64,000 bases of DNA, taken from assembly GCA_002633005.1 (NCBI GenBank), contig NMRA01000638.1:172693-236692 (forward strand), given 5' to 3'. Position numbers and translations under genes: made by a program. A model generated the notes under the pieces. It saw only the letters and a list, made by a program, of their open reading frames with translations. It searched no databases and was not told where the DNA came from. Origin of the DNA: Phoronis australis (lineage: Eukaryota; Animalia; Phoronida). Below are positions 657 to 57,196 of the stretch, piece after piece; the first letter of the stretch is position 1, and every line of letters starts with the position of its first letter.

Positions 657-761
657 CTCTATCGTTCTTGAGGCCGGATGTCTCTCCATTACCAGAGCCT
701 CTCCCTGGTCCTGTACGGTGTTAAACTGCGTCTCTCGCGACTCCATGTCAGACATAAGGCT
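657..761 (-). CDS. shot: Duplicate of the HPASRTIE exon (SLMSDMES variant)
   Basis: Near-identical to 2858-2962 with intact splice sites. Confidence 0.8.
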
Positions 762-12700: not shown

Positions 12701-15003
12701 TCAAGCTGTGTTGTTTAATGACTATAAATATACAGCATACCAAAGCACAATCAATTACACTGAGCATTATTTACACTTCACTTACCTTCAGCATCTAACA
12801 GCTTGGTCACACCAAACTCTTTTTCTGCTGTGTCAAATGCTAGCTCCAAGTTCTGTCTGGCTGTGTTGCTGCGCACTAGCCTGTAGTCTATGGCATCAGG
12901 TCTGCAATAAAAAGCAATAAACATTTGCTACACAAACCAATAAAAACATTTCATAGTGTAACAAAACATAAGGTATAGCACCAAACTAATTCTTACTATG
13001 TTTTGACGTTATATGCCATTTCACGAAATTCTGAAAACTGGTGGGGATTTACATCGATGTCAGAAGACCTTGAGAAAAGGGCAAATTGCAATTATTTTTA
13101 ACCGAAATTGTAGACATTTTACCGTTCCTGTGTTTTGATGGCTCAATTTTGCATTAATCAGAAAAAAATATTTCCAATTCTGAGGTAAGACGAAAGAACA
13201 GTTTTTGTTTTCCACTGGCAACTATGTCAGGGACAGGGTGGCATACTAATAGCAAGCTAAGCCATCTGAGACTTGTTCGGTCTTAATTTGAAGTAGCAGG
13301 TTTTTGAGCTTCCAACTTGATGCTCAATATTTAACCATTACAACAACAGCAATGGCAAGAAAAACTACAAAAACCACAGTAATTTGAAGGAACTGTTTAG
13401 TTGAAATCGAGAAGAGAATTCCTTAACACATCTCAAATTATTAGCGGATGCTTTAATATCAAATACATAATTTTATTTTAGGCAGTACATTACTACTTGT
13501 CTATTCAAAGTGTGATGCCCTGCTTCCACAAAACTAATGGTGACTTAACATTTTGAATTCCTGAAGTTACTAACATATGAAGTTGTCTTGCATAACCTAA
13601 AACTTATCTCCACTTACAATGTTATTAAATCAAAAGGTGTGTCTAATGATTACAAGATTTCGAAATTAAAAATGTACAGGTATAAATTAGGTCATGAAAT
13701 AATCACACAACATAACCACCTAAGTGTATGCCCGAAGTCAACAAAAACTAGATTTACATGGTTTGGCGCCACAAGCCTCTTATCTATCAATAACTATAAT
13801 TTTGTATAAATAATACCACATGAACCAGACAGAAGCATGTACCAAGACAGAACTTGACTGTTAATATACACTTCACCTGCATGTGGCCCACACTTGCTAA
13901 CTAGTCTCATCATTCATACAAACAGAATAAGATTGTTTGTTAATTTAACAGAATTTTTTTTTTTAAGTAACCATACAAAAGTGGCTTCAACCAACCACAG
14001 AACATCTTGCATTTGTATCACATTTTGTGGTCAACATTAGCCATTTCTCTCATTTATTCAACAATCCAGATTCCATCAATGTTTGGCAAATATTTGTTGA
14101 GGGTGTGCACATCAAAACTAAGTGCTGATAATAGTTCTCACGACAGTGACACAAATGACCAAGAATGCCTTGTCACCAAACTTATCAGAAAACCCCAAGT
14201 TATGCATTAAAGTCTTGGAAGATAAGCCACAAATTAAGCCCACAAAATATGGTGGTGGTTTGAACCAGTTATTAATGGAAACCAACCAACCGTCACTGGG
14301 AGATCTTCGACTCCGCGAAGAAGGGGGGGGGTTAACCACAATTTGGGGAAGAAAATGGCCAGTACCAAACCTAAAAGCAAATGCTGGAGGCACATATTTT
14401 GTTGAATCTGTGGGAGAAAACAACCAGACCCCAAAAATCCTCCTTGTAAAGAAAACACACGTTAGAACAGGATAAACACAATGACCAAGCCTGGCAGACC
14501 AAATAACCAGATATGAAAATGCCAAAACTCAAACTTTGGCTGATGACTAATAACAGACTACAGTGTAAAGTCATAGTCCCAATTCACACTGTTTTTCATG
14601 TTCCATAAGTTCTTTTCCCACTAAAAGTCCACCTCATTTTGCCTAGTGTAATTGAATACATAGCTCACAATATGTCTCCCTAAACGAAGGACCTCTACAA
14701 AATTTTCCATGAGTTCATTTTCCATGAGTTTTATTTGCAGGAGCTCGACAAATAGCTTGTGTATTGTGGAAGACCAAAAACGAGATTACGGTATGCCTAC
14801 AAACCAACACGCGCAGTACGATATCGAGCTGCTTACCTGTTTTTGTGCAATATTGAGCAGAAGGCCTTGCCATCTCGCCAACTCGTTGAAAAGTCGTTGA
14901 TCTTGACATCAGGGTAGCCATCGCACATCTGTCGACTCCACAACAATAACGCCTCCTTGGCCGTAAGCTCTTCTGTCTGGCCTGCCACAACCACATCGGA
15001 GAT
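657..15003 (-). CDS. shot: Spectraplakin (Short stop/dystonin/MACF1/plectin-like), partial multi-exon gene: CH2 domain plus N-terminal plakin domain; continues beyond the left edge
   Basis: Exons 14837-15003, 12786-12901, 9765-9871, 8667-8786, 7929-8158, 6891-7148, 6352-6556, 5458-5667, 4562-4723 and 2858-2962 all have AG/GT boundaries and matching phases. Family motifs recognised: TAKEALLLW, FSTSWRDGKAF, DVPMPDEKSILTYVSSLYD, RLERLQRLA, EYGSDL, ELMWLNEREEAEISRDWS, HPASRTIE. The symbol is a family-level assignment. Confidence 0.93.
2368..2529 (-). CDS. shot: Duplicate of the NTANRR exon (probably the other allele; LEGAN instead of LEEAN)
   Basis: Near-identical to 4562-4723 with intact splice sites; lies in the N-joined duplication. 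Confidence 0.6.
2858..2962 (-). CDS. shot: Spectraplakin exon (SLMCDMESRETQFNTVQDQGEALVMERHPASRTIE), copy 1
   Basis: CTTCAG|AGC ... GAG|GTGAGG, 105 nt, phase 0 to 0. Confidence 0.88.
4562..4723 (-). CDS. shot: Spectraplakin exon (NTANRRLKS...ELMWLNEREEAEISRDWS...ERYYQ), copy 1
   Basis: GCACAG|AAT ... CAG|GTTGGT, 162 nt, phase 0 to 0. Confidence 0.92.
4865..5110 (+). mobile_element. Penelope-like retroelement remnant (GIY-YIG endonuclease C-terminus)
   Basis: Frameshifted NYIG followed by RVKDH...AVIQEH...H...FSIL...WKRMVREASEI...PSLNRDPG, the typical end of a Penelope ORF. Confidence 0.8.
5458..5667 (-). CDS. shot: Spectraplakin exon (NSLEVAEYGSDLHSAQ...KLEMAYSLLT)
   Basis: ACCCAG|AAT ... 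ACT|GTAAGT, 210 nt, phase 0 to 0. Confidence 0.92.
6352..6556 (-). CDS. shot: Spectraplakin exon (VNTLYQKW...FKQLQDCLTWIEMKQ)
   Basis: CTTCCAG|A ... CAG|GTGAGT, 205 nt, phase 2 to 0. Confidence 0.92.
6891..7148 (-). CDS. shot: Spectraplakin exon (LERLQRLAEKVHHD...DGRYAQSELLHKR)
   Basis: GTGCAG|G ... AG|GTAGGT, 258 nt, phase 2 to 2. Confidence 0.93.
7781..7952. repeat. 4 x 43-bp tandem repeat straddling an exon/intron junction
   Basis: Unit cctggttcctacaacatacctactgatctc... starts at 7781, 7824, 7867 and 7910. Confidence 0.92.
7929..8158 (-). CDS. shot: Spectraplakin exon (TLLAEFNHFRIKEIPP...ERDMAIQAEITR)
   Basis: TTCTAG|ACG ... AG|GTATGT, 230 nt, phase 0 to 2. Confidence 0.92.
8667..8786 (-). 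CDS. shot: Spectraplakin exon (ERRVKWEEYRDLAASLLRWIRDSTSMMLDSNFPNTLIEMK)
   Basis: TAACAG|GAG ... AAG|GTATAT, 120 nt, phase 0 to 0. Resembles the first plakin spectrin repeat. Confidence 0.92.
9020..9522. mobile_element. hAT-like MITE, ~500 bp, 6-bp TSD
   Basis: TIR CAGGGCTTGGAAT...ATTCCAAGCCCTG, flanked by taggat on both sides; subterminal cgcggaa repeats. Confidence 0.85.
9765..9871 (-). CDS. shot: Spectraplakin exon, end of CH2 (DIDVPMPDEKSILTYVSSLYDVFPEIPSAQQSVADN)
   Basis: TTCCCAG|AT ... AAC|GTAAGT, 107 nt, phase 1 to 0. Contains the PDEKS..TYVS signature. Confidence 0.95.
10310..10636 (+). repeat. Two tandem units with a (GAT/GAC)n tract; third copy at ~12297-12445
   Basis: gacacttggcgaaattaac.gaaaagacgacg...gatgatgacgaagatgac...aacattca...ctacagtcttg recurs three times. 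Confidence 0.8.
10738..11583 (+). mobile_element. Helentron-associated (HINE/DINE-1/pearl-like) non-autonomous element
   Basis: 5' acaagag plus hairpin caacgc/gcgttg and subTIR atgcgcc; diverged tandem core units; (GGAC)n microsatellite; 3' stem-loop tgcgtccacatataaatatgtgggcgca; A-rich flank. Confidence 0.75.
12786..12901 (-). CDS. shot: Spectraplakin exon, CH2 (PDAIDYRLVRSNTARQNLELAFDTAEKEFGVTKLLDAE)
   Basis: TTGCAG|A ... G|GTAAGT, 116 nt, phase 2 to 1. Not in the ORF track; translated by hand. Confidence 0.95.
14837..15003 (-). CDS. shot: Spectraplakin exon, first CH2 exon (ISDVVVAGQTEELTAKEALLLWSRQMCDGYPDVKINDFSTSWRDGKAFCSILHKNR)
   Basis: Acceptor TCTTCAG|ATC (phase 0), donor AG|GTAAGC (phase 2), 167 nt. 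ISD is the conserved start of the CH1-CH2 linker in plakins. Confidence 0.95.
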
Positions 15004-15022
15004 CTGAAGATACAAGATACTG

Positions 15023-15195
15023 GTCAGTGGTATATTGGTGATAGGGATCATAATACGAAACAGTAGTGCAATTGTGATATGGGTTACAATAAGTAACAGT
15101 AATATAATTGTGACATGGGTTATTAATTGAAATAGTAGTGTTATGGTGATATGGATTATAGGTTGAAACAGTAGTATAATAGTATGTGGATTAAA
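15023..15195. repeat. Degenerate 36-bp tandem repeat (~5 units) just upstream of the CH2 acceptor
   Basis: Units like aacagtagtgcaattgtgatatgggtta with 36-nt period. Confidence 0.75.
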
Positions 15196-15394
15196 ATAAG
15201 AAACAATAGTATTTGAGATCAGAGAACAAAAGGTGCTGTACACATTGAGGATCTGATAATATGATATCTGTTAAACTTAAGAAATGGTAGTGTGCACATC
15301 AAAAAGGCATTTCCCACTGGCTCCAAAGCCCAGGTGTTGCCAAGGTGGATTTGACAGCTAAGCATTGACGTTTTGTCACAATCTGAATACTTAA

Positions 15395-16406
15395 AGGAGA
15401 ATGCCACCATAAAAGAACATAATTTGTATCAATTTACATCCAGTAGTTCCACTCGATATCAGCAAGGTCAGTTCTTTTACCTGACACCAGACGGCTAACG
15501 AAGGTGCTGAAATCAACCAATGATATCACAGGTTCTAACACAGTCTGCTCAGCAGTTCAGAAGATGCTTACTGGTGTCAGCTTATCGCTTGAATTCATCA
15601 CTATACACCAATAAATCATCAAAATTCTGTGCAAAACCTTTACAAATACATTGAGTGTTTAAACAAATGAGTCCTTTTGTTCCGCTAATAAGGATTTAAA
15701 GAAATTTTGAACGTACCGTAACCTACAACGTGTGGTATGCCAACTTACTGAGGTCGGTCGTGGGAAGTTTGGAGTCTGCTCGGTGATAACTTAGAATTTT
15801 TTCCTCCAAGAAATACAGGCAGGAGAGCATAGCCGTATGTTGTAATTTTAGACTTGTGAATTTTTTGTTCTAAACACAAAACGTTCGTTATAATCCAGAG
15901 GCTTGTAACCAGATCCCGCCCGTCGCGGCCGGACTGGAGACATTACGAACATAAACCAGCTGGGTTAAGTCGGCTGCGAAAGTTGAAAATTAAACTTCCA
16001 GTCACGAAAAGACTAGACTAGTGAACCAGAGAAATGATGTGAATATTTTGGTGAGTTCGCAACGAAATTGCAAATCTCATACTTGGTATTAACGGCGTAC
16101 TTTTCATTCTTTACTGCCGGGAACCACTTCCACAGCATTTCGGGTTCTCGAGGAAATCAAGAAAAAAAAACAATATACCCGCTTTCCTCACAGCTTCATG
16201 GTTCGCACAAGCAGGAATGATATGCTACACCATAGCGGCACACACTCAGCTGAAGAACCACTGACATCGCTGCTTCATGTACTCACTTTCCTCACAAGTT
16301 CACACAACACCTTTCGGTGAGGTGAGATCAAATGTATACTAGGTGACATAGATATGAACCGATTAAGAGGGTAACAAAAACAAATTAAATCTGGTGGCAT
16401 TCTCCT
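15395..16406. mobile_element. Kolobok-like non-autonomous DNA transposon, ~1.0 kb
   Basis: Perfect 15-bp TIR AGGAGAATGCCACCA, TTAA on both sides, purine-purine termini. Confidence 0.85.
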
Positions 16407-16779
16407 TTAACTTTGATGCTATCGAGTTATCAGCAGGGGTCAATGCCTGCATTTGCAAACAGCGAGTGGTGACTGGTTATTATTTGTTAATATTTTGTTC
16501 TAATCATAATTATTTTGGCGGTATAAGCATTCTGTTTCAAATTATTATTCGATGGATACTTTATATTAAGCTGAAGCTGATGGGAACACTAACGCTTAAC
16601 TTTGAGATTAAGTAGCGAAGTTAACTGCATGGGAAAAGGCCTAAAGATCTATGTACAATGGAATCCGAAGACAGTAGAAAAATTATAGGAACTACAATGG
16701 AAACCAGACGATAGCAGTATGGAGCAGTGCTCATTACTCAAAATTACCATCAATGAGCTAGAGTTAGAAAAGTGACATA

Positions 16780-18243
16780 CCGTATTCGCCCTAATAACCG
16801 TCCAGGGCGCTTAGAAAAATTTGTTTCAGGGGCGCTTATTGTAACCCAAGACAGTTGAAACACGGTCTTCGAAACGGGTGAAATCAGAAGCTAAGATTCA
16901 TTATATTTACGCTCTGTGACGTATCTGCAACCTATGACAGACTTTCCACAAAATTATGGTGCATTGCTATCAAACTTTTCTGTTAAGTTACGATTATTTT
17001 ACAGTAATGTGTGGTGAAATCCCAGTGAGTGACTGCCTCACAATCGTCCACATGGCAACTTGAATGCTTGAATAAAAATACAGTTTTGACTCAAGCAAAT
17101 TACATGAAATCCTCCTTAAGGTTTCCAACTAGCGTCCCTAAGATTTTTAAGTTACCGTGGAGTCGGGATTAACGCCAGGTTAAATTATCTGTGCTACATC
17201 ATGCCATCTAAGATCGGCAACATGAGAAAAGTCTCTGGACAAACACACATGTTGTTGTCATATGAGTAAGCGAGTGCGTGCATGTCACCAGAGTTCATTT
17301 GCCAGAGTAAACACAATCTAACAAGCAAGATGTGCATTGTATCCAAAGAAATTAGCACAAACAGTAGGCCTAAAGCACGTGTTTCATTCAGCACTTGCCA
17401 GTCTCGTGCCAATAACGTTCCACATTATTTGTTTCGGTAAGNGCCCATATTAGTCACCATGTGGCTGGATGCCTACGTGACTATCTTGACAGTTATTTTT
17501 CGGTGTAAGGGTGAGTAAGCATTCTCTGTCAGTTGTCATTTTATCAGATATTTGGCTTTAAAAACACGAGTTATGATTAATCAAACAATCCTCTTAAAAA
17601 TAACGCAAACATTTTTATAGTAACAGAAACTGTCGGAAATTAGTGCCAATACTCATTTCTTGCAGATGCTATGCTACCAGTTACATGAATGGTTAGTTCC
17701 TGGCTAAGGTCTTTCTTTGATGACAGGTACATGTATGTAGCCCATGCTTCCTGGCCATGTGCTATTACCAGAAATATCTAAAATACAATCCCGTTGACAA
17801 GTATGCTACATCTGTTCTGAAAGGCAAGACCATAGTAGGACACATTCCAGTAAGATCAGCAAAACTTAAGTGTGCTTTTCTCTCAAGAAACTTGCTCTAC
17901 TGAAGGCATGTCTATCTGGAAGAATATCTTAGTTCCAAGACAAGACGAGCAGCAACCGAGGTACATAAAAACCATCGGGATCATGACGTCACCGTATCGT
18001 GTGCGCTATTCCACTTCAGCCCGTTGAAGTCCCTTACTTCAATCCACCGACTCATATTTTAACTGACGTGCTTGAAGTCCGACATCAGTGTAGCTCCGTG
18101 AGGATAAAATCGGTCCTTTCTGCAGTAAGCAGCCACTCCTGACTTTTCAAAAATTTAACTGCCCGTGCTCGGCTTACCGCTCACCCCCTATTTTTATAGA
18201 TTCCCAATTTAAGCGCCCTGGGTGGTAACCCGGACGAGTACGG
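16780..18243. mobile_element. Tc2/pogo-like non-autonomous element (CCGTA termini, TA TSD)
   Basis: ta|CCGTATTCGCCCTAATAACCGTCCAGGGCGCTTA ... TAAGCGCCCTGGGTGGTAACCCGGACGAGTACGG|ta. Internal sequence is shared with 28650-29435 and 51383-52944. Confidence 0.85.
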
Positions 18244-21200
18244 TACTCTGTACTAGACACTGAGAGATGGTTCATCCGTCAAGAATTGTTTATAAGATAT
18301 TTTTGGTGAGCTTTCGCATTCTACGCCTCTTGAAATTTGTGTTTTTTGGTGGAGCCTAGCATTTTTTTGATATGGTGAGTAAGCCTTTCTTAAACAATTA
18401 ACACAAACCAAATAGAGTTCATAGATCTACTCAACTGGAAAATTCATAGCGGCTAACTTTCCAGTTTGAAGTTTGCAATCGTAGCTTGACTTACTAGCGC
18501 AGCTACAAAAGACCTTAAGTGCTTATTGTTCTTTTGATTAAAACATTAACTATCCAATAACCTTCTTGGGAAAACCCAGAAAGGTCTCAGGAACTAAAGA
18601 CAAATTGGTACCCTCAAAAGAGCAGGGTGATGTGTAAAATGGACTAAACATATGGCATCATTCATCTTGCTAGAGCTATGCTAGAGGTTCTAATTAACAC
18701 CTGCTAATCACATATCAGAGAGGGCAGCCTTATCTTTTACAATATACATAGACAGGCTTTGGTCCTTCTGTAATGGGCCCAGTAACAGGTCACCAACTGT
18801 ATGATAAGACAGATAGCATAGAGTAACAAGAGCAACACAGATCCTTGAAATACACCCATCACAGCAATGCAAACAGTGTGGTTCTAAGAGTTATTTATTA
18901 GTGTCAAAAATAGTGGCATTGAATAATAGGCCATAGTCCATTCGACTCTAGGAAGCCTAGAAAATCACTTCCATGGCCACTTTTTGGGGGCAAGATAATT
19001 TTGGTGTTTTTAAGGTCATTAAGTACTACTAAGTCGATTTGCCGAAGCTGAGAAAAAGCCGATTAAACTGGGACGAATGAAAAACTCTTCGCTTAATTAT
19101 TCTGTATTTCGTTCAATATAACCTATACATGCCTAAACCATGATAGCTATTTCAACATTCACTCACAATGTCAATTGAATTTGAAGTGCATAATTAACTA
19201 AATTATCATTAAAACATACCGTCCCCAGCCACGAGCACGGATCAACTCTTGTTGATGTTTGACCTACTTAAAAGTAGGCCACAGTTCATTGTTATATACC
19301 GTACACAGTCTGTACACAGTCTGTACACGTCAAGTGCCGGGAGAATGACACGAAACCAAGTAAGAAATGGATAACAAAAATCGAGTCGGTGCTTAAAGCA
19401 TGTCGTTAGCATGAAATCGAAACAGTGAAATGTCAACTTACTTCTTGAATTAAGGATTATGGGTGAGGATTTAACTCTTTTCACAATTAACTTGCTGTAT
19501 TCATGACCACAGCGGCGAGAGGTGACTCCTAGCATTCATTCTCAACAGTTGTATACATGGAGACGCAAACTCACTCAGGATCAAAACTACGTTTTGTATT
19601 TGTTTTCCGCGGCACCGTTCTATCATAAGTACACCTGGTTGACTCAGTGTCATGGCGACTTGGTGAATGAAAGCACTGAGGGTACATACAAAGCTGCTCT
19701 GTACCTGGCAGGATATTCGATTTGAGTGACAGCCCTGTAACGTTTGACTTCCGATAAGTTGTAAACAAATATTCACCCATTATATATTTCGTATTTGAAG
19801 TTCGCCAAGAAGGAAGATAAGGTATTTTGCTAGACACATGCAATATTGTAAAAACGGACAATTTTTGTGAATAAGGTTTGAGATAACCTAACTTCGGTTG
19901 TTACTCTGCAAGTGAAACTTCGTTTAAAATAGTAGCAAAGTTTCGGTACTCACCAGTCAAAGCGAAGCTTTGTCAAAGTTATTGGTAAAGGCCGCGAAAC
20001 TAATATACGACGATGCGAGACTCGCAAAATGTGTTCTTTGTTATTGTAGCGTAGCCGACGTGCTCTCAATAGGCACACGTAAATAAATAAAAGAAAGCAT
20101 ATCTGATGAAGAATAACTCTGATCATTTTCATAAACACTCGTAAATGGCAGGAAAACAATTTGCAGTTAATCTCGAACCCACTACTCAATATTCGTCTGA
20201 TAGTACGAATGAACAGCGTCATATGATATCTTGGTGATAACTTCGATATCGCTCCTTAAGTGAGAAAGGTAAGTGAAATTTCGTGAAGCTTCGGTAAACT
20301 GAAGTTCCCCTAATAGGAAAGTACTTTTATATGACAGTGTTTATACCAATTCATATCTCAATGTGTGCATATGCATGGAAACTAGAGCAGTGGGACTACC
20401 TCAGGTCTAACCAGAAAGGGCAGTACCAGTAAAGTTAATGAACACATGTCTAAATATACAGTAACTATAATACAGTCTACAACTGCCAAAAGAATTTGAC
20501 TACCTGGCTTTGCATCTCTTGATCACAGACCTCGAAGTTTCTAGTCCATTTGTTAAACTGAATTGTCAGTTGAATTTTAGTTTTCCTGTGTGCAGACATC
20601 AATCATGTCCAATTCACCCTAATCAAATTGTAAACCCAGCCAGGTCACCAAGCCAATTCAACAAGTTCTATGAATGGAAGTAAATTCTTTCAGCCTACTA
20701 TAATGGATATGCTCTAGCTGTCACAAGTATTTGGATGATCACACAGCTACACATTGAAGAGTAACATCAATATCATTACTTGTCATCACACAGTAGATCC
20801 ATTCATCCAGGTAGATATATCAGTGTGAGCCATCATTTTCACCTGCCTGAACATCTACAGGTGTGTTTATACATGCAAGACATTGCTGCAGTTAGTTGAC
20901 TGATCACAGTGTGTCCGCACACGGCCAAGAAATAATTGAGCATCAGTTATCAAACAGTCAGATTTACGCAACAAAGGAGTTCATGAGCTGAAGTTGATCT
21001 GCAAACTAACTGTAATCCAAGTCATTGCTCCACCACACCTGAGCCTGCTGAGAGATCACTGGGCCAAAATGACAACTGAGAATCCTTCAACAAGTTGATC
21101 TCATTCTTCCAAGAGTTCAGTTAAGGCTGAGTAACTCAGGTGTCTAATAAATGTCACTGATGACATACTCGAGCATGTTAACAATGAGATTTTTAAGGCC

Positions 21201-24144
21201 TTCAAGAGGATGCCAAAGCAGGTCTAATCTAGACAGCAAAGCACTTCAAACTTAACTTAATAAATTGCAGCAGTCCCACCATGTTCAACCAGGACATTTA
21301 TCATCTAACATTAGCATAAGTAAAACCTGCTTCAATAATATTATGCAACTCAAAAGCAATAAGTTTCATCAATTTAGGGTCACTTGATCACCAGCTATTT
21401 TTAAAATGTTTGAAATCAAATCCCTTGAGCAAACAAAACACTAACTCTTGAGTTAAAAGGTTACAAATCCAGGACACAATCCTTTTAGTAAACATGCATG
21501 GGAGAGATTGCAATATGGTGGCTCCACTGCAGGAAGAATGGCTACAACTTCACCTTAAGTTTGTAAAGATAAAATCGGCAAATAAAAATGGCAAACACAG
21601 ATTTTAGTTCAATGACCGATTAGAATTCCAAGTATTGCTTGTCGAATAGAGATTAAAGTGAAAAAAGAAACTGTTGCACCTAAGCTAAAAATAAATCAAA
21701 GCTTGCTAATTGGAATCTGAAAATGATTGCAAGAAATTGTGGTGTGGAGATAACCTGTGGCAGAAAAGCCATAAAGGCAACAATTCGGGAGGGGGGACTT
21801 CATCTACAGCACAGGTGACATTTTTTTACTTAAGCATTTTTCATAAACTCAGCAGTTATACCATTTCCAAGTTCTATGCCATAGCTACCAATAGGCAATG
21901 TTTTGAGGAACTATGGGAAACTTTTTAAAACAATGTTAGAAACCTTTGAAAAATGAAAATAGGTCAATTTTGCTTAATAAATCACCTACGATAAAATCTT
22001 TCAATGTTCTGAGCTAAGTCGAACCTAAACAATGCCACCATCTCCTCTGGCCCCAGTAGAGACGGTGAAACTCCTGTAGCATCCGGAAGCTTTTCTATGA
22101 ATTACGTCTCACACTGATTAAAACATCAAAGTCCTATTTTTACACTGTACGCGCAAGGAGTGTGCGCAGTGTAAAAATGACCAGTTGCCGATTTGGACAA
22201 CTGAATAAAGGACTGCTTGAAAAAAGTTGGAATACGGGAGAATTTGTTTGAGTTGGAAGGAATTAAAGACATCGACAGCCTCCTAAGGCGTCCCTCTGTG
22301 TACAAAAAGCACTTATAGTTTCACAGTCTCTACTAAGGCCAGTCAAGATGGTGGCACTGTCTAAGTACAATCCAGGAGTAAAGGACAGTTTTAAAATTTT
22401 GTTCTTGGGCAGTCATTTTATTCCTTGGAAGCCTTTACCATACTCAAACATACTTGGTGTGAGGAAGACCCAAAGCAACATCACATTTATGGTCCACCAA
22501 CTGACAGCTCAATAATAATCTATGTAGATAATGTCCCAACATTACATCATGAACAAACACTGAACAAGCTGAGCTGCTCAATAGGTTTAATTACAACAAG
22601 TGTGTTCTCAGGATATCCACAGGTAGAGGTGATAGCCATTGGTCAGAGTGCACAATGACCACTACATGGTAAATCAATCAGTGATAAAGCTGTCACTTCA
22701 TTATGAAAGCACCACTACTGGGAAGTTCTCAAGCACCTGCCAGGGTGTTCCATCGAAATTGGAATCCCGGTGTAAAACAGATATCCCATAGTTGAAAACA
22801 GACTCCTGCACCTTCAAAACAGCTAACCAGCCCAAAAAACACCAACCCCGACAATCGGGGACAGAAACACCCCTCCTGCACTTTCTGTCAAACATTGTTT
22901 ATCTCAAGAAAATAGTACCTTTAAAGTGCTTCGTGTACAAACAACATGTATAAATTTCGCATTTTAATATAAAAAAACAAATCTTACTTTAAATAGTTGT
23001 TGTGATATGCTGTTTTATTATACGAGAATTTTATACAACTTATGACCAATCTCTAACGAAAAAGTGTTGATTCTTAAGAACCCGGTTTAATCACAGACAT
23101 GTACAGTGTTCCAGACAGAGTGAACAATAAGAAATCGCATGTGCTGGTTTGGTGGACGATTTGCCAGATTGAATTTGATATCTTTCAGTTGTCTTTAAAG
23201 TATTCTGTATGGGTTTTCTTTATAAATGTTGTAGGATTGGAATTTCCCGTTTTTCAAAGTAAGCGCTAACAATGCTTGAAAGTTGGTACATTTGTTTGGC
23301 GTTTTGGGCCCAATTCCCCAGTTGAAAGTCTGATCAATTTCGACTTGTTTTGGATCTGGGTGGGCATACATGTTCATAGTCACAGTCACTAACCAAAGGC
23401 GAAGGCAAAGGCTACAAAATCACACCACAACGGTCACAGAATCCAGTGAAATGATCCATCAAAAAGAGTGTAGATGCTTTGAGTTTAGAAATTCTGATTC
23501 CAAATTCCATTTAAAAGATCGATGAGGAGTTGAGATACACTTTTTGAGGGCAAGAACGGCGAAATCGGTGATGGAGCAGGTCCTTTGAGTGAACAATTCT
23601 AGTGGTCCATTTCAAAATCTGGAAATTGATTGTGACGGAAATAATGTACTCTCAACAATTAAATCGACTAACCCTAAAATGCGGCCAATTGCAAAGATAT
23701 TTAAAGGAATTAATCAACATTTTTGTTTCTGATTTTTGAAAATATTTTTGGAGAAACTATTGAATAATCTAAAATTTGCTAACTATTCACCGAGACCACG
23801 TGTTGAGAGTATAGATTATGTTGAAATTCGCCCACAGACAAGTTGCACGAGTACTGATAATCAAATAACAAAGTTAATGTAAATTACGTTCGATTATCCA
23901 CAATTTTTAACAAACAAATGCAACAAACATCTGGAAAGTACTTCAAGATGCTTTAAATCAAAGTTTGAAACTACTGACATCATCTCAGAAAATTTTAAAA
24001 ACTGTCCAGGTTTCCAGTCCAATCCCCAGAGGGTTCCCGTTTTAAAGGTTGAGGTTTGTGTTTTAAAGTGGAACTTGTATGCTATTTCCTTATCTCTATG
24101 CTTTCTTGGTCAAATTAGTTAGAAACACAAGATACAGCGACAAT

Positions 24145-25097
24145 TAGGGCTTTATCCAGGATTTCGAAAATAGGGTGTCCAAAATGGCGTTCCCAATATT
24201 CCACAGCATCCATGATTCCAACGTTGCATTACCCCTACATTTCACCAGTAATCCTCCCCGCTCATACAGTGAGGTTTTTACAAAAACGTGTAAACCAAGG
24301 CTTTCAGAAAAAGAGCTCCCCTATAGTGAGCTTTTTAGTAAAAACAGTGGGTGGACCAAAACTCCTACGTCTAAATTTATGAAAACAGTCAAGTAGCTTA
24401 CCAAACAAACATTTCAGATATTGGTTGAACAATGAGTGCACTGTGTTTTAGGTGATCTCAAATCAAATTGCTGTTATAAAGTTTATCATATCATTTTAGC
24501 TAGCTTTTATATTTTGTACAATAAGTCATCAGAGCTACAGTTATCAACACAAGAAAAAAGCACAGATGATTGTATTTTGGAAACAGGTGTCTCTGCTCCT
24601 CCGGTAAAACATTAAAACGCACTTTGAAAAGCATGAAAGGGGTGCAAACTGAAAAATTTTAAATAAGCATATTCTTGTGGCACAATATAATATTAAACTA
24701 ATGACATTTATTTCGCTTTGGTGTTTTTAAAAAAGATGTAAAACATGAAGCAGCTCTGAAATACCAGTTTGGAGTTAACCAAGGTCCATGCACTTATATT
24801 AAGTACAGAAATACTGTTTGAGACAAGACTACTGAAAGCAGAGTCTTCAGTGGAAGGCACTTTAGCAAACAAACATCTACTAATGATTGACAGGTCTGCT
24901 CAATAGTTTGAACATTATAACATTTTATATACTGTATTGTTCAAAGGGCCAACACTTCTCTCTTCAACTATCTGGGAGTCCTAGTGATCCTAAAATGTGG
25001 GTATCCAAACTGGAGAAATTCTGATGACAGTGGGCTGCCAAATGATACATAGGGTGTCTTGGCCAGGGCGTCCTGATTAGTGCTGGATGAAGACCTG
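24145..25097. mobile_element. hAT-like non-autonomous element, ~950 bp, 8-bp TSD
   Basis: TAGGGCTTTATCCAG ... CTGGATGAAGACCTG, flanked by gcgacaat and gcgacaac. Confidence 0.75.
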
Positions 25098-25993
25098 GCG
25101 ACAACGTGAATATGAAGTAGGTGGTAAATTGCAAAATGTTTTAAGAACTAGTTTTGCTTAGAAAATGGTCAACAGTGTGTCTAGCAAGTATCGGGATGAA
25201 GTGTTGGGAAATAATACTGCATGGTGTGGGCTATGTGAGCCCCCAAGGTACATCATTAGTGCAAAGGTCATCTATCAGAGAATTTTTTGTTTTCACATTT
25301 GCAAGTTGTCAATGAATACAACTGCACTTTGTTTAGCATATATGATGTTCAAATAGGGTTGTTGTTTAGTTCCTGCTGTACATTAGCATAGTTAGGAGCA
25401 TGCAAATACATCTTTAGAGGTCAAGGTTTGTGTTTTTTGGGCTGGTTAACTGTTATGCAAGTGCGGGAGTCTGTTTTCGACTCCAGGATATCCGTTTTAC
25501 ACTGGAGTTCCAATTTTGACGGAACACCTTGATATCAGTAAAAGGCAGCACAAGAACCCATGTCTTGAAAACAGAGTGCAATAATTTGACAGACTAATAG
25601 GCACATTATAGTAATAACTGGTCACTTAATATTTGCTACGACATATAACCAAAGCAAAGTTGTTAACGACCTTGAATTTTAACCCTTTAACTGTAATGTC
25701 ACAAATAATACTGCAATGACATTTCAGACAAATGGGGACAAACTGTTGTCAAATCAGCGCTGCTTCACTGAAGGAACAAAAATCAGAACCACAATAAACT
25801 TGATCGACATTTTTAACCAAAAATAAAAACTAATCTAATTTGAATTTCAACAAACCACTTCCATTTAAAAGCATTACTTTAGAATGGGGGCTTAACAGAA
25901 ATTCGTTTCAGTTATAATGAACAACGAGGACTGAACAAATTTCTATCACACGGCTTACACGACCAGGTGGTTAGAAGAACGTCTACTGCTTAC

Positions 25994-26167
25994 CTCCCAT
26001 GTCATTACCCCATTACCATCTGAGGCTGTCGTTTGTGTTAATTTCAACTTTTTAGCCTTTCTTTCATTAGTGACAAGCTTCTCCTCCGCTGGCAGAGGTG
26101 TACTAGGGAGATTCTTCACATCTTTCTTCTTTTTCTTCTTTGACCGACAGGACATACATCCCCACAT
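25994..26167 (-). CDS. Probable alternative first coding exon (58 aa, MWGCMSCRSKKKKKKD...VMTWE)
   Basis: ATA ATG context, upstream in-frame TGA, donor GAG|GTAAGC at phase 0. N-terminal Cys pair plus Lys run encoded by mixed AAG/AAA codons. Confidence 0.7.
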
Positions 26168-28649
26168 TATGCTAGTCTCTCATTCCCCACTCCAAGTCCG
26201 TTACTCTCTGCTGTTGTGCCTGGCTTTCCTGTCTGTCAGTTAGACTGTAATTCCAGGTCTACCACATTCTACCAGATGTTTACAGCTGACTGAAGTTAGA
26301 CACCGCAAATGTCGGACAAGCCTTAACCTTAGCCAACTGGGTAACATTAACAGAATGAGAAACAAACTCAGCTCAACAGGAAGCCCAAATCAGCACTTGC
26401 CCAACTGCTGAGTTATCAAAGCTGTCTATTGCTTAATGGATTAATTGAACGTTCACATTCACTGTTTAACAGTGGCTCTATTTCAAAACATGCCAGTCAC
26501 ACAACATCCACTGTTCAACATCAAGCCTCACTAAACCAAAGGAGAAAAAACAACTGGGATGACCTCTGTATCCACCAGCCCAAAACAGATGATTGAAGTG
26601 TTCTCAGTCAGAACAACAAATCAAAATGTTGCAAGCACTGGGTACCCCTCAGGATCACATAACAAGCAGACTTTGACCTCCACAAGGCAGTAATAATCAA
26701 AAATGAAATACAACCAGCACTGATGTATGACCAAAACTCCTGTCACAGATGGGATAGCTGCTAATACCTGTTCTGTCAGAATGTCAGTGCGCAAACACTG
26801 ACCATGTATTGTCCTCAGACCACAGCATTCACTCACAGAAGATACTGAATCCAATGTCAGTTGCCAAACAATTTTGCATAGTTGACCTGTTATTGTATGC
26901 ACAGGTCTCAATTCATAAATAATCTGGAGGGGCTTTGTATGAGTGGAAGTCTTCAAATAGATAGATGAAGGTTAGGTGACACAACCCTAGGTTATCAATA
27001 TTATTCTTCAAGAATGCCATCAAATGCTCACTTGGTCACCTCCAATGCAACATTCAACCTTGAGCTCCTATAGTGATTGGGCATTACAAGTCCATCATAC
27101 ACAATTAAACGGGTTAATCCTGAACTTGATGCTTGAGAAACCAAAAACATTTGACTTAGGTGTCACTCAAGTGCCGAGGTGTCATTACAATAAACTGTTA
27201 CAACTACCAACTTCAGTAACAAAGGTAACTGTACAACACCTCTGACTAGATATGTTATCTGTTTGTAGTTGACTGATTCATACACAGAGGTCACCACAGT
27301 CCTCGACAATGATCAGCATCACTTGTAGATAGTAAGGAAATAGTTCTGGAGTAAAATGCACACTGGTGTCACCTGAACTCGAACAGGTCATAGGTCAAGA
27401 AGCCTAACTGTTTTTCCAACATAACCTGATGAGTGCCTGGACTGTCAATCAACAGTTGAGCTTTCACCAGGCACCTTTTTCCCTTTTCTTGTTACCTTCA
27501 GAAACCACCAACAACAACAGAATAACATTGACTGTCACAGTTTATCATTGTAGAGTATAATCTCTCATTCTATAGATGTTTGATCACAAGACAGATAAGG
27601 TAGAGTTGAAATTCCTTGTCAGATGTCAACAGCAAGCTGACACAAGCTGGTTGCACAGCCCTTGTGATGCTGGGAGTAATACACTAAGTCATTGTCAAAC
27701 AGCTCCCACTGACTCCTTTCACATGTAAGCTTTACCATTGACCAGGGGATAATTCAACCAGGCTATTCTATGGGCAGTATTATTTACTGTCAACCAAAGG
27801 TAAATGCTACCATTGTTCCAGATATTCAATACATCCATAGGTAGTAGGCTAGTGTTTTCACAATCTGAACCAACTCAATAATAATTCCATTATTCTAATC
27901 CACCAACCAAAAGTGTCAAAAGGTAATGGTAGCAAAAATTAAGGTCATATTTCATAGTTCTAACCAAATTATACATGGTGCACAGGCATGTGTCTTGCCC
28001 AAGCAGTGTTTGCAGACCCATGGCACATACAGTGAATTTGAGCATCAACAAAACCAGAAAAAGCTTTTGAACCAGTATTCAATTATGAAAGTGTATACTC
28101 ATCAATGAAGGTGGCATTCACTAACAGGGGTCCCCAGATCATGAGAACCACCTTGGTGCACCTCATTCAGAGAAGAAAAATGGTTTTCACTGAAATGAAA
28201 GAACCCTTTAAAGTGACTGCCAGTTAATCAAATAAAGACATCAGTGCAATCAGTCATCCTGCACGAAAAATGAAGGAGTTCATGAGCAAAGGCAAGGCGT
28301 ACTATCATACAAGTGGTCGGACTTCCATCTAATACCAGGTTTACACTAGGAGTGACCACAATACTAGCACTTCCTCAGGGGTGAAAACCTTCAGTCAGAC
28401 CACATAGGGCTAATTTTCACTAGAAGTGCTGGCGAAAACATAAGCATGAGTACACCCAAATCACCAATAAAAGTGACACTTTAAAACCATTCATATTATT
28501 GGCATTTTGGCAAGAGGTATAGGGTGAGTGATAATGCTAGTATTTTAGCTGGTTTGTAAACAGGTGTAAAAATCCTTCAATTTAGAATAGTCTTTGAACT
28601 TGGGGTATTGTAATGCCCACCCCAAATCATGCTTTCAGTTCTCTTAAGC

Positions 28650-30530: not shown

Positions 30531-30534
30531 ATGG

Positions 30535-34280: not shown

Positions 34281-34376
34281 CTTGGATCTCTTTGAAGACT
34301 GACCCCCCTGAAAGTTTCCAAGATTTGATTGAATGAACAAGCGATTTTGTTCCCGTACAAACTTATACATGGCCAT
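34281..34376 (-). CDS. Possible alternative first coding exon (32 aa, MAMYKFVREQNRLFIQSNLGNFQGGQSSKRSK)
   Basis: GCAATGGCCATG start and donor AAG|GTAGGT at phase 0. Below the ORF-track cutoff; translated by hand. Confidence 0.5.
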
Positions 34377-39498: not shown

Positions 39499-39591
39499 CT
39501 CTTTTCCATTGCGCACGATTCGGATATAATCTTCTCGCGGACTCTGTTTTGAATACATGCTATCCTTGTCTTTGCCTGAAGCATTTCCCAT
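39499..39591 (-). CDS. Probable alternative first coding exon (31 aa, MGNASGKDKDSMYSKQSPREDYIRIVRNGKE), N-myristoylation-like
   Basis: GCCATGG Kozak. G-N-A-S-G-K fits the N-myristoylation pattern. Donor GAG|GTATTG is weaker, at phase 0. Confidence 0.55.
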
Positions 39592-45410: not shown

Positions 45411-46745
45411 GGAAATAAGAAAGAAAAACCTGTTGTGTATTTAGGGAGCACAAATAGCTTCAAAACGATACAATATTGATTCATACTTTGAACCCAACAA
45501 AAAGACTTGCATGATACTTCTTCCAACAGTGACATTTTTAGTGTCAGCATTTTTGCACTTACATGGACATACACTTCACTATGGAAATTAGTTATTTTTG
45601 GTGTTTCAAAGAACACACGCTTTTGTATTCAATTGGTGAAAGTTTTTTTAAGATTTCAATTTATTGTCCTAAGTTCATCCACTTGTACACGCATTCAACA
45701 TGAGTGCCCATTAACACACGTCTAGCCACATTTATTATTAGTTATGATTCTAAAAGTACTAGTTATGACATGTTATTGAAATAATTGAGCATGAAACTAA
45801 AAGTCAGTTATTGCATTTCAGTGTGTCAAAGAATTTATAAAAAATGCTGGAAATATCTCAAAGAATTAAATCCATATAAGAATGGAGAATGGTGTCTACC
45901 AAATACCTTATCGGCATCTAGCAAAGGTAATGGTCGGATAAAACGTGCCCGCATTTTGAGAACCAGTTTTCTCCACCCAATAATGGGTATCAAACTGGTT
46001 CTCAAAATAGGAGCATATAATATCCAACTATTGCCTCTAGCGACAATGCAAATTTCATCATGTTGCCACTNGGAAATAAGAAAGAAAAACCTGTTGTGTA
46101 TTTAGGGAGCACAAATAGCTTCAAAACGATACAATGTTGATTCATACTTTGAACCCAACAAAAAGACTTGCATGATACTTCTTCTAACAATGACATTTTT
46201 AGTGTCAGCATTTTTGCACTTACATGGACATACACTTCACTATGGAAATTAGTTATTTTTGGTGTTTCAAAGAACACACGCTTTTGTATTCAATTGGTGA
46301 AAGTTTTTTTAAGATTTCAATTTATTGTCCTAAGTTCATCGGAATGCAGGAACACACTTGTACACGCATTCAACATGAGTGCCCATTAACACACGTCTAG
46401 CCACATTTATTATTAGTTATGATTCTAAAAGTACTAGTTATGACATGTTATTGAAATAATTGAGCATGAAACTAAAAGTCAGTTATTGCATTTCAGTGTG
46501 TCAAAGAATTTATAAAAAATGCTGGAAATATCTCAAAGAATTAAATCCATATAAGAATGGAGAATGGTGTCTACCAAATACCTTATCGGCATCTAGCAAA
46601 GGTAATGGTCGGATAAAACGTGCCCGCATTTTGAGAACCAGTTTTCTCCACCCAATAATGGGTATCAAACTGGTTCGCAAAATAGGAGCATATAATATCC
46701 AACTATTGCCTCTAGCGACAATGCAAATTTCATCATGTTGCCACT
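45411..46745. repeat. ~0.67 kb direct duplication joined by a single N (46071)
   Basis: 45411-46070 matches 46072-46745 apart from a few SNPs and one ~14-bp indel. Confidence 0.95.
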
Positions 46746-48389: not shown

Positions 48390-49805
48390 CTGACTCAAAA
48401 CGGACAAATTACAGAGATCTGGTTCCGAGCCAGAGTCGCACGTTACTTTGCTAAAGCTCCACGTGGCAATGGGTGAACAGTACAGATCCCCACATAGACA
48501 ATCAAAGTAACCGCATTGCCAACAACTGTCGACCAAAGGTGGAGTACACCCAACAGAAGGTGTGGGACTCTGGGAGACAGGGCGAGAACAGAAAGACATG
48601 GAAGACTCTCGTCTGTCAGTATGCGTGTGATTTGAGCTCAAAGGACATCTGTTGTGCTTTCTAAGACATTTAGAACATCTCCCTTTGGGTGGTGGTCTCT
48701 CTGGAGAAAGGCGTTGGGCTCCTAAATGTTTCAAGTTTGTCTCTTCCTCTAAATTAAAATTTAAGTGTGAAATATCACTAAAGCTTGACATCAAGAAGTT
48801 TTCATCTGTTTGTCTAATCTTTGAAACTGGATTTCCATAAGCATCGATTTCCATCAGCTTCATTGAATTGTCACAAAACATTGCAATATCTGCCGCCAGT
48901 GACAAGATCTGACTAGATTGTTTTTGGCGTTCATTGTTTTTTGACTTCAATTCCAATTTGTTTTGAACAGCCCTGGCAAGAACTTTGTTGTTGAACACTT
49001 GACTTTTTCTCACGTGTTTACAACGCCAACAGTTCATCACGCTACATGTGATGGAAGACAAGTTTGATTCAGACGAAGCCCGCTGTCGTAGTAATGTTGC
49101 CATGGATAAAGGAGAATGATGTAAGGATTTGTGATATGGCGAAACAGGGGTTGACAACACATCAACACTGTCGGCTGTGAAGTCAGTATAACCTTCTGAG
49201 CTACTGGTTGAAATTTGACTTGAAACACTGGAAGTCATTATGTCTGCTAGTTCACTTGTAGTGCTCTCCATGGAACACTCCATGGGCTCTTCGCTGGCTA
49301 CAGTTGGCAGCCAAGAACTAAGACATGGTGGTGTTGATGAGCATCTAGGCACTGGTGACAACTGGGGTGACCATAAGGCACTTTCAGGAGCTGCAACACT
49401 CAGCGACAACACAGAGTGGGCACCCAAACTATGACACCGATGATGGGGAAAGAAAGTTTCATCCCACTGCCAACTGTTAGGAGTGTTGGGACGTGTCGAA
49501 CATGTGCTTTTAACACTCCCAAATTCTTCAAGGGACTTTGAAAGACTTTCTGTAGGTTCCAATGTGACCTCCTCCATCTTCGACTCGTCAGCGAGAAATA
49601 CTTCATGGATAGTGCCACAGAGCCAACACCTCTGTGAACTCCAAGTCAAAGTAGGCAGTTTGCAAGGACACCGTCTTCTGTTTCTGGAAAGAAGCCTCTG
49701 TGTGTACAAGGTACTGCTGTGCCGTCTTGGTGGGTTACTGGATCTAGATGAGTCTACCAACGAAACAAGCTTTTTGCTAGCCGTAAAGCTGATAGGCAGA
49801 GACAT
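48390..49805 (-). CDS. Probable large alternative first coding exon of the spectraplakin (472 aa, Ser/Cys-rich, probably disordered)
   Basis: Longest ORF in the window, same strand as the gene. AGT ATG context with an upstream in-frame TGA. Donor CAG|GTAACA after exactly 1416 nt (phase 0), after which the sequence turns AT-rich. No TE motifs recognised. Confidence 0.75.
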
Positions 49806-53998: not shown

Positions 53999-54068
53999 CG
54001 CGCACACACACGCACACACACACACAAGCACGCACATGCACACACACACAAGCATGTACGCACACACA
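53999..54068. repeat. Imperfect (CA/CG)n microsatellite
   Basis: cgcacacacacgcacacacacacac... Confidence 0.9.
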
Positions 54069-55830
54069 TTACACAATTATTTTCCTTCTCAAGAGCAAGA
54101 TTTTTCTTTGTTTTTGAAAATGCCAATTCTAATCAAGGTAAAACAATTTTAAAGTCACCTATCTGGATAGCAAAATCATAGTCACTGACACTATTTTGTC
54201 ATGAAATTTTACCACAAGGAGTCACAGAAAGACAGGCACTCCAATGTATTAACTGCAGATGGTCCCACCAGGTGTCCTCACATTCCAAAATGATTCACTG
54301 ATTACCAGAAATGTTTGACAGATGAAGACACAGGGAGTCACTATGGGTGAAACAAGGAGAAACAGAAAGCAGCAAATAATTTGCTGAGCAATTGGTAAAA
54401 ATGCAGATTAAGAGTTTAATGGAGAACAGTGTTCCCCCCACATGTGGGAAAGTCCCGAGCCATGTTGGGAAATAAAAGTTTTGAGTTACCTTGGGTAAGC
54501 CTGGTTTGTTCTGCTTTAGAAAGAGGTAGAAATAATTTTGCTTAGAAATATTCGTTGTTGTAATAAAAAGCATTATAATATGCCCAGCAATTGAAAAAAC
54601 TGCCACAGTAGCTATTTAGGCCAATTAGCAGAAAGGGAGATTGGGATAAGAACATAACACATGCTTAGAATTTTTGGCCTCAGGAGAACCCTGAGCTGAG
54701 ACCATAAAAACATAGCCATGCAGGTTAGACAAGTTCATTACAATTAGTCCAAAAAGTGCCTCCACAGCCAAGTGGATGAAAGCCATATTGCTCACCCCTG
54801 ATTCAGAATACGGTACACAGCAGACCAATAGCATGAATAGCACAAATGGTCAAAAAGACTTTGTTTCTGTAGGAAAGCATGTGTCCCCAGTGTGCAACCA
54901 AATTTGGAAGTTAACGACTTTCATGTAAAAAATACATAACCAAAATAAGAAGATAACCTAGAAATCTGCAATACCATTTTTAAGACTTCATCTTTTTGGA
55001 AAATTTTAACAATAAAAGACATGGTCACATGACCCACTAACGCTAGGTTGACTTTGAATAAAAATGGAATTCTACTGGCTTCCTACTTTTAGAAAACATA
55101 TACATTGACTGTTAAATTACAGTTTCATAGACATTTGGTTAAATCCCTATAGACTTATTAACAATGTCCCATATAGCTTAAAAATGTGAGGTCATATATC
55201 ACAACAATTGAAAGTCATTGTGTATTGTTGTTAAGCATTAGTAATGTTGAAAGGTTTTTTATTATAAATCCTCTTGGTTGAAAAACTGACATTTGATTTA
55301 CATCACTTCCCATAACACCATGCATCCTAAATGGCAAACACATATGGTGTGCTTATTCTTTCCAACATTTCTAAACACCAGAGTGAACTTGAAATTCAGT
55401 CAGTGCTAATAAACAAAAATCGGCATATGCAGTTCTCCTTTAAATGTTTTTACAACATTAGCACATTAAAGAAGTTTCAGTAAGTCAAAAAGCAATCCTA
55501 GTAGATATCGTGATTGACACAAAACTGAAATTGTAACTAGGGGAACTGCTGCAGTTGGATCCCTCCAATAACCAAGGCAGTCATATTTCGCTTTACTACT
55601 AACATCGCAATTTCCATTTTAAGGAATTTCAATCAGTGGAAACTAAGCGTAAATCCCGAAAGTTTGCAAACATATCAAATAGTGAAAAAGCATGGTAATC
55701 TATTGAGACATGGAGAAATCCGAGGAAAGATGCATCATTGGTCATACAAAAAACAAATACAGATTGATTTCTTGGGCATAATAAGTCATATCGACCTGAC
55801 AGGAGATCAATTTTGCTCTCCCTCAATCTA

Positions 55831-56708: not shown

Positions 56709-57070
56709 TATATGTGATCTCCTAATTGGCGATACTGAATCGAAATGCTAACACTCTGCTTCTAAATCAACTGGTTAACTGCAATCATGACTTGGATCCA
56801 AGACCAAAGTTAACCATTCTTCCAGACCAACACCCCTCAAAACATCAACACATTGGTATGGCAGGCCTTTTAGAGACAAGGAGCTCAAAACCAATTGAGT
56901 ACTGGTAAATTTATAACAATCTTCTTGGTCCATGTGCCCATGACTGGGAAATATCTTGAAAAATAATCAAGGTTCAAACCAAATGACTCAACACACTAGC
57001 AAACCACAGTAACTTCCATGAAAAACCGATTTAGGAAAACATAAGGACTAAACACTGGAAAGCCACTTAC

Positions 57071-57196
57071 CTCATTCAAGTTAAGTCTCTTTGGAACAAT
57101 CATTCCGTAGTAAGGACGCCAGCTGTACAGTTCGTACACATAGTACAGCAGAGGCTGTTCGGCCTTGCGTTTTCTACTGTTGCCCGTCACAGCCAT
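57071..57196 (-). CDS. Probable alternative first coding exon (42 aa, MAVTGNSRKRKAEQPLLYYVYELYSWRPYYGMIVPKRLNLNE)
   Basis: ATCATGG start context and consensus donor GAG|GTAAGT at phase 0, in unique sequence. Confidence 0.6.

What the first reader, a model, noticed from the sequence alone, without database searches (positions are those of the whole stretch)
14837..57196. Candidate array of alternative first exons splicing onto the spectraplakin CH2 exon (variable N-terminal targeting cassette)
Seen: the CH2 exon has a phase-0 acceptor at 15003, and I found no CH1 exon in the 49 kb upstream. In that interval five same-strand ATG ORFs (57071-57196, 48390-49805, 39499-39591, 34281-34376, 25994-26167) each have a purine at -3, end at an AG|GTA donor in phase 0, and lie 5-11 kb apart. 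Each has a TE-poor unique block on its 5' side. Known: plectin, dystonin/BPAG1, MACF1 and Drosophila shot use alternative first exons, and CH1-less isoforms (BPAG1a3, Shot-C type) start at CH2. Inference: this locus has an expanded variable-first-exon/constant-exon system, like clustered protocadherins or UGT1A. It would swap the CH1 actin-binding module for different targeting peptides. Caveat: a handful of short ATG-to-donor ORFs are expected by chance in 49 kb.
Basis: partly seen in the sequence, partly recalled or inferred. Interest (0 to 1): 0.85.

Follow-up and report, generated by a model that had tools for sequence, protein, structure and literature searches.

The report
Several actin-free starts, one spectraplakin
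A long intron of this invertebrate's cytoskeletal-linker gene holds five unrelated reading frames that likely act as alternative first exons and would replace the protein's actin-gripping front end with other tags, two of them predicted membrane anchors; one such start per gene is already known in flies and mammals, and no splice from these five has yet been seen.

Summary
All five ORFs and the CH2 exon are real, on the minus strand, in phase 0. No CH1 exon lies in the window. The 472-codon ORF cannot be chance. All five follow CpG-poor, repeat-free blocks. RNA confirms the CH2 exon. The only upstream partner listed is the CH1 exon outside the window (8 reads). The 26-kb exon and 266 bases of its leader are transcribed. 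The 34-kb exon had no reads. The other three were not tested with RNA. No homologues were found. The exons are unrelated to each other, so this is not a protocadherin/UGT1-type duplicated array. Best reading (0.65): several internal promoters make CH1-less isoforms of the Shot-C/dystonin-a3 kind, beside a dominant CH1 isoform. The kind is known; the number (5, perhaps 7) is the possible novelty, and it lacks junction reads.

The parts
14837..15003 (-). First CH2 exon; common phase-0 acceptor at 15003
   Evidence: Pfam CH, E=2.7e-9; best solved relative plectin ABD, E=1e-16; both ends confirmed by stranded reads, 16 in X1 and 15 in X2
25994..26167 (-). E26: candidate first coding exon, 58 aa, MWGCMSCRSKKKKKK... 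(Cys4/Cys7 plus polybasic; predicted palmitoyl/charge anchor)
   Evidence: strong donor; in-frame stop 5 codons before ATG; sense reads in X1 and X2 and X4 contigs over 26026-26433; the 6 listed differences are 4 synonymous and 2 non-synonymous, one of them C7Y in the X4 contig. No junction listed.
26168..26433 (-). Transcribed 5' leader of E26 (at least 266 bases)
   Evidence: X4 contigs 26026-26262 (depth 37) and 26229-26433 (depth 18), X2 reads at 26263-26314
34281..34376 (-). E34: candidate first coding exon, 32 aa, basic C-terminal end
   Evidence: strong donor; in-frame stop 2 codons upstream, no phase-0 acceptor. Zero depth in 4 of 4 runs.
39499..39591 (-). E39: candidate first coding exon, 31 aa, MGNASGK... 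(matches a recalled N-myristoylation pattern)
   Evidence: motif and absence of phase-0 acceptor; weakest donor of the five, 4.3. Not tested with RNA.
48390..49805 (-). E48: large candidate first coding exon, 472 aa, 18% Ser, four CxxC motifs (residues 60, 259, 377, 428), likely largely disordered
   Evidence: 515-codon open frame, chance expectation 4e-10; no Pfam family, no relatives; single-sequence model pLDDT 33, uninformative. A weak phase-0 AG at 49811 leaves a cassette-exon reading open. Not tested with RNA.
57071..57196 (-). E57: candidate first coding exon, 42 aa, with RKRK basic stretch
   Evidence: strongest donor in the 49 kb, 11.8; no phase-0 acceptor. Not tested with RNA.
20504..20599 (-).
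   Evidence: CpG o/e 0.14 upstream, 0.98 downstream of the donor; sense-only reads at 20494-21825 in X1 and X2
54490..54573 (-). Extra candidate: 28-codon phase-0 ORF, AAG|GTAACT donor, CpG-poor block upstream
   Evidence: no RNA test
12786..12901 (-). Second CH2 exon (constant region)
   Evidence: tblastn; its start is the loose end of reads leaving 14837
4526..9872 (-). Constant region: end of CH2 and plakin-domain exons (about 9872-9765, 8786-8667, 8155-7928, 7150-6890, 6579-6343, 5670-5458, 4738-4526)
   Evidence: Colinear tblastn matches to Tegillarca P0028, 39-69% identity; Pfam Spectrin_4 E=3e-9

Best explanation
This is the intron between the CH1 and CH2 exons of an invertebrate spectraplakin gene, in which CH1-to-CH2 splicing is seen in reads, and which likely also holds several internal promoters whose unrelated first exons would splice in frame onto CH2 to give CH1-less isoforms with different N-terminal tags. 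Shown: the gene's identity, the CH2 acceptor, the CH1 junction, the five phase-0 ORFs, transcription of E26 with a leader, and a non-chance frame at E48. Inferred: a promoter in each CpG-poor block; splicing of each donor to 15003 (the next acceptor, in the matching phase); skipping of these exons in CH1 transcripts because four of five have no usable in-frame acceptor. From known biology: CH2 alone binds F-actin little or not at all (10.1101/122010, 10.1101/2021.11.21.469398). Predicted: E39 is myristoylated, E26 is palmitoylated and polybasic, so these would tie the linker to membranes instead of actin; E48 would be a long disordered lead; the roles of E34 and E57 are open. My odds per exon of being a true first exon on CH2: E26 0.85, E48 0.8, E57 0.7, E39 0.7, E34 0.6; at least three real 0.65; all five 0.4.
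For: 7 of 37 donor sites with a phase-0 ORF against 1.4 expected. 515-codon frame whose ATG lies 9 codons after a stop and whose phase-0 donor lies 35 codons before the next stop. All five in the lowest 26% of upstream CpG o/e; the two extra mechanical hits are not. In-frame stops 2-28 codons before each ATG and no phase-0 AG for E34, E39, E57, so these three cannot be in-frame cassettes. E26 and 266 bases of leader are covered by X4 contigs while the neighbouring unique bins are empty. Sense-only raw reads in X1+X2 lie in 5 repeat-free bins below 27.8 kb (about 2,480 bases, some 16 reads) and in none of 4 repeat-free bins above (bins chosen by me afterwards), which fits an internal start better than CH1 pre-mRNA. 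The same phase-0 intron position precedes CH2 in 33 of the 34 loci printed (L040 is offset by my coordinate), and none of the spectraplakin-like genomic loci among L001-L040 shows CH1 within up to 9.9 kb upstream. One CH2-only start per gene, with a lipidation motif in dystonin, is published.
Against: No junction from any candidate was listed in either lay; 8 of 8 identified acceptor-side reads are CH1. E34 has zero depth in 4 of 4 runs. E39, E48, E57 have no RNA test. Raw-read support for E26 is about 1 fragment in X1 and 2 in X2, similar to the 20.5-21.8 kb block. X4 holds E26 but showed no CH2 contig and 0.00 of the plakin-exon words, which is unexplained if E26 joins CH2. The enrichment depends on a post-hoc filter. 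No homologue of E48, and none of the candidates matched the 80 fetched loci (best E 0.04, output cut at 5000 characters). One of E26's two cysteines differs in the X4 contig.
Confidence: 0.65

Rival explanations
1. Ordinary spectraplakin layout: only one or two internal first exons are real (E48 as the long C-type lead, perhaps E26); E34, E39 and E57 are chance ORFs in old intron DNA.
For: Reviews describe one CH2-only start per gene. E34 has no reads. An earlier unreviewed scan note reports a chance membrane-anchor reading in a similar intron.
Against: An excess of about five under the strict filter; E34 and E57 carry two of the seven strongest donors in 49 kb; all follow CpG-poor blocks; E39 begins with a myristoylation pattern like the known type-3 start.
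Confidence: 0.25
2. The expressed or maintained ORFs belong to something else: E48 is an internal cassette exon between CH1 and CH2 or a nested single-exon gene, and E26 is a separate short transcript.
For: A phase-0 AG lies at 49811, 2 codons before E48's ATG, and E48's frame runs on 35 codons to its own stop. X4 has E26 without CH2 or plakin exons. Octopus isoforms carry an optional 15-aa insert between CH1 and CH2, so cassettes at this place exist.
Against: The AG at 49811 has no pyrimidine tract and two other AGs just before it. E26's frame ends at a strong phase-0 donor. The tool warns that filters drop contigs by chance.
Confidence: 0.08
3. None of the five is an exon; only CH1 ever joins 15003.
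For: All 8 identified acceptor-side reads are CH1; no homologues.
Against: E48's open frame has a chance expectation of 4e-10; E26 is transcribed.
Confidence: 0.02

Closest known systems
Type-3 / C-type spectraplakin isoforms: dystonin BPAG1a3/b3, MACF1a3, Drosophila Shot-PC and -PH
   Same: An alternative start that skips CH1 and enters at CH2; BPAG1a3 carries a myristoylation motif (PMC3352950 passages; 10.1101/122010 passages), as E39 appears to. Shot-PC has negligible actin binding (10.1101/2021.11.21.469398 passages).
   Different: These reviews describe one CH2-only N-terminus per gene (four promoters in all for shot). Here five, perhaps seven, unrelated candidates share the one intron. 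No sequence similarity to the known leads could be tested; they were not among the sequences fetched.
Plectin (PLEC) multiple variable first exons
   Same: Named among genes with multiple variable first exons on common constant exons (PMC1885805 passage). Short, mutually unrelated N-termini that direct localisation (recalled, no call).
   Different: Plectin's first exons lie upstream of CH1 and keep the whole actin-binding domain (recalled); here each would delete CH1.
Clustered protocadherins, UGT1, GCNT2
   Same: Tandem variable first exons with common downstream constant exons (PMC1885805 passages).
   Different: There the variable exons are duplicated paralogues that evolve by birth and death. 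Here no pair shows similarity and lengths run from 31 to 472 codons.

Membership tests
Spectraplakin/plakin gene | Tandem CH1-CH2 actin-binding domain | tested here: met
   CH2 in window; reads join it to a sequence translating GLIWMIILHF, matching the Octopus CH1 end GLIWTIILHF
Spectraplakin/plakin gene | Plakin domain after the CH domains | tested here: met
   Pfam Spectrin_4 E=3e-9; colinear exons against P0028
Spectraplakin/plakin gene | Spectrin rod, EF hands and GAR domain at the C-terminus | not testable with these tools
   Outside the window; no genome held
Type-3 / C-type (CH1-less) isoform | First exon located between CH1 and CH2, in frame with CH2 | tested here: met
   Five phase-0 ORFs upstream of 15003; CH1 absent from the window yet spliced to 15003
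Type-3 / C-type (CH1-less) isoform | Splices directly to CH2 | tested here: inconclusive
   No junction listed (threshold 3 reads); 2 partly laid reads in X1 and 2 in X2 fell in no listed group
Type-3 / C-type (CH1-less) isoform | Own transcription start | tested here: inconclusive
   E26 leader transcribed to at least 26433; no cap data
Type-3 / C-type (CH1-less) isoform | N-terminal lipidation motif (dystonin a3) | tested here: inconclusive
   E39 matches a recalled PROSITE-type myristoylation pattern, E26 has Cys4/Cys7 plus lysines; motif match only
Type-3 / C-type (CH1-less) isoform | Weak or no F-actin binding | not testable with these tools
   Follows from the literature on CH2-only isoforms
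Protocadherin/UGT1-type variable exon cluster | Variable exons are paralogues made by tandem duplication | tested here: not met
   blastn (E<=0.5) and tblastx (E<=0.05) among 7 candidates with 800 bases upstream: no hit in 21 pairs
Protocadherin/UGT1-type variable exon cluster | Each variable exon has its own promoter and splices to shared constant exons | tested here: inconclusive
   as above

The most novel reading that the evidence does not exclude
One spectraplakin gene carries five to seven unrelated first exons inside the CH1-CH2 intron and uses them as a promoter-selected menu of actin-free heads: a myristoyl anchor, a palmitoyl-plus-polybasic anchor, basic (possibly nuclear) tags and a 472-residue disordered head with four CxxC motifs. 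Fly and mammal genes are described with one such start.
Probability: 0.3. Interest if true: 0.6.

Novelty: new variant of a known kind. Interest (0 to 1): 0.4.

Why it matters
The function of spectraplakin lead sequences is open: none was reported for Shot, and the dystonin ones are debated (10.1101/122010). A gene with several natural leads on the same CH2-only body would let one compare, in one background, where a microtubule linker goes when it is anchored by lipid or charge instead of actin. It would also extend the CH1-less, lipid-tagged start from vertebrates and flies to a mollusc-like lineage. Two searches for spectraplakin with mollusc or lophotrochozoan terms listed no paper on such isoforms (listings only). 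The principle itself is known, which limits the surprise.

Tried and rejected
No whole genome is held, so CH1 could not be located. The run search listed no RNA holder for 5335-8160; the four runs came by species label. The first lay (20 kb, likeness 92) was crowded by repeat-derived reads: 686 loose-end rows and 5 joints were not shown, so absence of a 25994-15003 joint there is weak. E48: no relatives among 7979 scored candidates of 827-2360 aa, in 1.84 billion representatives, or in metagenome contigs; the protein atlas gave no answer; the single-sequence model (pLDDT 33) was too poor for a fold search, which I did not run. CH2 searches returned 3 and 9 proteins: CH1-containing forms or what look like genomic read-through translations, no CH1-less transcript. 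The Octopus 15-aa insert has no match in the window. Among upstream regions of fetched loci no conserved peptide with ATG and donor emerged. Rejected: protocadherin-type duplication; candidates 60149-59997 (repeat, CpG-rich) and 46764-46582 (duplication around an N); the idea that CH1 hides in an assembly gap upstream of some candidates is unlikely, as the Ns at 46071 and 63508 join overlapping duplicates and a repeat aligns across 17442. PMC314283 (Zhang, Haws, Wu 2004) is not held; I saw only its citation. Earlier-finding look-ups were empty.
Full report
Observation. The gene runs on the minus strand. All five ORFs are at the stated coordinates, begin with ATG and a purine at -3, and end at AG|GTA in phase 0; the exon at 15003-14837 opens in phase 0. 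That exon is a calponin-homology fragment (Pfam CH, E=2.7e-9) whose best solved relatives are plectin actin-binding domains. It is 73% identical to Octopus bimaculoides 'plectin' isoforms. Downstream exons match the rest of CH2 and the plakin domain of a Tegillarca protein in order. The organism is therefore probably a mollusc or another lophotrochozoan (inference). Octopus and Tegillarca CH1 sequences find nothing in the window.

Chance. Put differently, 7 of 37 [ACG]AG|GTA sites carry such an ORF, against 1.4 expected (P=5e-4); wrong phases give 3 and 2, the other strand 0, 3 and 0. The filter is post hoc. A general donor matrix (recalled) shows no phase-0 excess: 9, 3 and 11 for phases 0, 1, 2. 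Still, E57, E26 and E34 own three of the seven strongest donors in the interval. E48 lies in a 515-codon open frame with a chance expectation of 4e-10; the next longest frames are 138 (sense) and 204 (antisense) codons.

First exon or cassette. Each ATG has an in-frame stop 2 to 28 codons upstream. E34, E39 and E57 have no phase-0 AG between stop and ATG. E26 and E48 have one each, without a pyrimidine tract. If these are exons, they are most simply first coding exons. The seven candidates compared share no DNA or protein similarity.

RNA. Three raw-read runs and one contig set share the species label; 18-19% of each raw run was read. On the CH2 exon 16, 15, 0 and 0 records were laid, all on the sense orientation, with sharp ends at 14837 and 15003. 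The only listed upstream partner translates GLIWMIILHF, the end of CH1 as in Octopus: 5 reads in X1, 3 in X2. So CH1 exists beyond the window and is the main partner in these two samples. Two partly laid reads in each run fell below the listing threshold. By arithmetic on the tables, at least one in X2 leaves on the acceptor side with 20 or more unlisted letters; its origin is unknown. On 14500-34450, X4 contigs cover 26026-26433 at depth 37 and 18, that is most of E26 and 266 bases of leader across the in-frame stop, with empty unique bins on both sides. X1 has about one and X2 two sense fragments there. Differences listed in the E26 frame are 4 synonymous and 2 non-synonymous, one changing Cys7. 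The E34 bin is empty in 4 of 4 runs. Sense-only reads of X1 and X2 fall in 5 repeat-free bins below 27.8 kb and in none of 4 above; the counts are small and I chose the bins afterwards. Against: X4 shows no CH2 contig and next to none of the plakin words; the tool says filters can cause this, but I cannot exclude that E26 is transcribed on its own.

Relatives. E48 has no detectable relative and no informative model. CH2 searches returned no CH1-less transcript. A metagenome scan gave 80 loci. In 33 of 34 printed the CH2 exon begins behind an AG at the same codon, and none of the spectraplakin-like genomic loci among L001-L040 shows CH1 in up to 9.9 kb upstream, so the long intron at this place is old. 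In one group of related loci a non-coding block with an initiator-like TCAGT core (label recalled) is conserved 0.6-1.8 kb before CH2 (9 of 22 loci scanned). It hints at an internal promoter there, but no conserved peptide follows it and nothing matches the window's candidates.

Mechanism. Most likely each CpG-poor block holds a tissue- or stage-specific promoter (inferred). Its transcript's first donor splices to the next acceptor, 15003, in frame (inferred). The product lacks CH1 and so binds F-actin poorly, as shown for Shot-PC (10.1101/2021.11.21.469398, passages). The lead then decides placement: myristoylation for E39, palmitoylation plus lysines for E26 (predicted from motifs), unknown for E34, E57 and E48. 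Confidence that at least three of five are real: 0.65. The main rival (0.25) is the ordinary layout with one or two internal starts.

Comparison. Reviews state that all spectraplakins have CH1+CH2 and CH2-only starts, four promoters in shot, and a myristoylation motif in BPAG1a3 (10.1101/122010, passages; PMC3352950, passages and section 10). The locus works like these. Membership of each candidate in the type-3 class is inconclusive until a junction is seen. It is not a protocadherin/UGT1-type cluster, whose variable exons arise by duplication (PMC1885805, passages). The first review notes that databases annotate more isoforms than the literature; its figures S1 and S2 were not visible and may show several type-3 starts elsewhere. 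Seven paper searches (listings) showed no report of several CH2-only starts in one gene or of molluscan isoforms; subscription journals are mostly not covered.

Verdict. Observation confirmed, interpretation partly supported. A probable expansion of a known isoform type: new variant of a known kind, interest 0.4.

Noticed in passing
window 407-4795, 45411-46745, 63416-63602: Three tandem duplications (95-97% identical) each flank a single N (2602, 46071, 63508); likely overlapping haplotype contigs joined in assembly. The first duplicates two plakin exons, probably an artefact.
   Followed up: partly
window 20504-21825 (-): Possible sixth first exon: 32-codon phase-0 ORF at the sharp edge of a CpG-poor block, with sense-only reads upstream in X1 and X2.
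   Followed up: partly
window 54490-54573 (-): Possible seventh first exon, 28 codons, good donor, CpG-poor block upstream.
   Followed up: partly
window 27496-27528 (-): 11-codon phase-0 ORF MLFCCCWWFLK at an AAG|GTAACA donor inside a CpG-free block; cysteine cluster suggests palmitoylation, but T at -3 and short enough to be chance.
   Followed up: partly
window 15038-15210: Degenerate 36-base tandem repeat just upstream of the CH2 acceptor; the CH2 frame stays open through it to 15270 and contains a Met. Next to no read depth past 15006.
   Followed up: partly
window 14837-15003; L003-L037: The CH2 exon has an internal Met (RQMCD); one group of fetched loci has Met at the same column (RMVD). 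It could serve as start for a non-coding first exon.
   Followed up: no
L005:5770-5960, L008, L018, L019, L021, L030, L032, L034, L037: Conserved non-coding block with a CTG run and TTATCAGTCG 0.6-1.8 kb before CH2, and a second block with TGACGTAAACA in L005, L008, L018; candidate internal promoter and enhancer.
   Followed up: partly
P0001-P0011: Octopus isoforms show two alternative leads before CH1, optional short inserts in CH1, and an optional 15-aa insert between CH1 and CH2; no match to the last in this window.
   Followed up: partly
window 26026-26433 versus 14837-15003: Run X4 holds E26 at depth 37 but showed no CH2 or plakin sequence; unexplained (filter, 5'-biased library, or independent transcript).
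   Followed up: partly
window 14989, 14991: All 15 covering reads differ from the window at both places (one synonymous, one Val to Ile); most likely allelic.
   Followed up: yes
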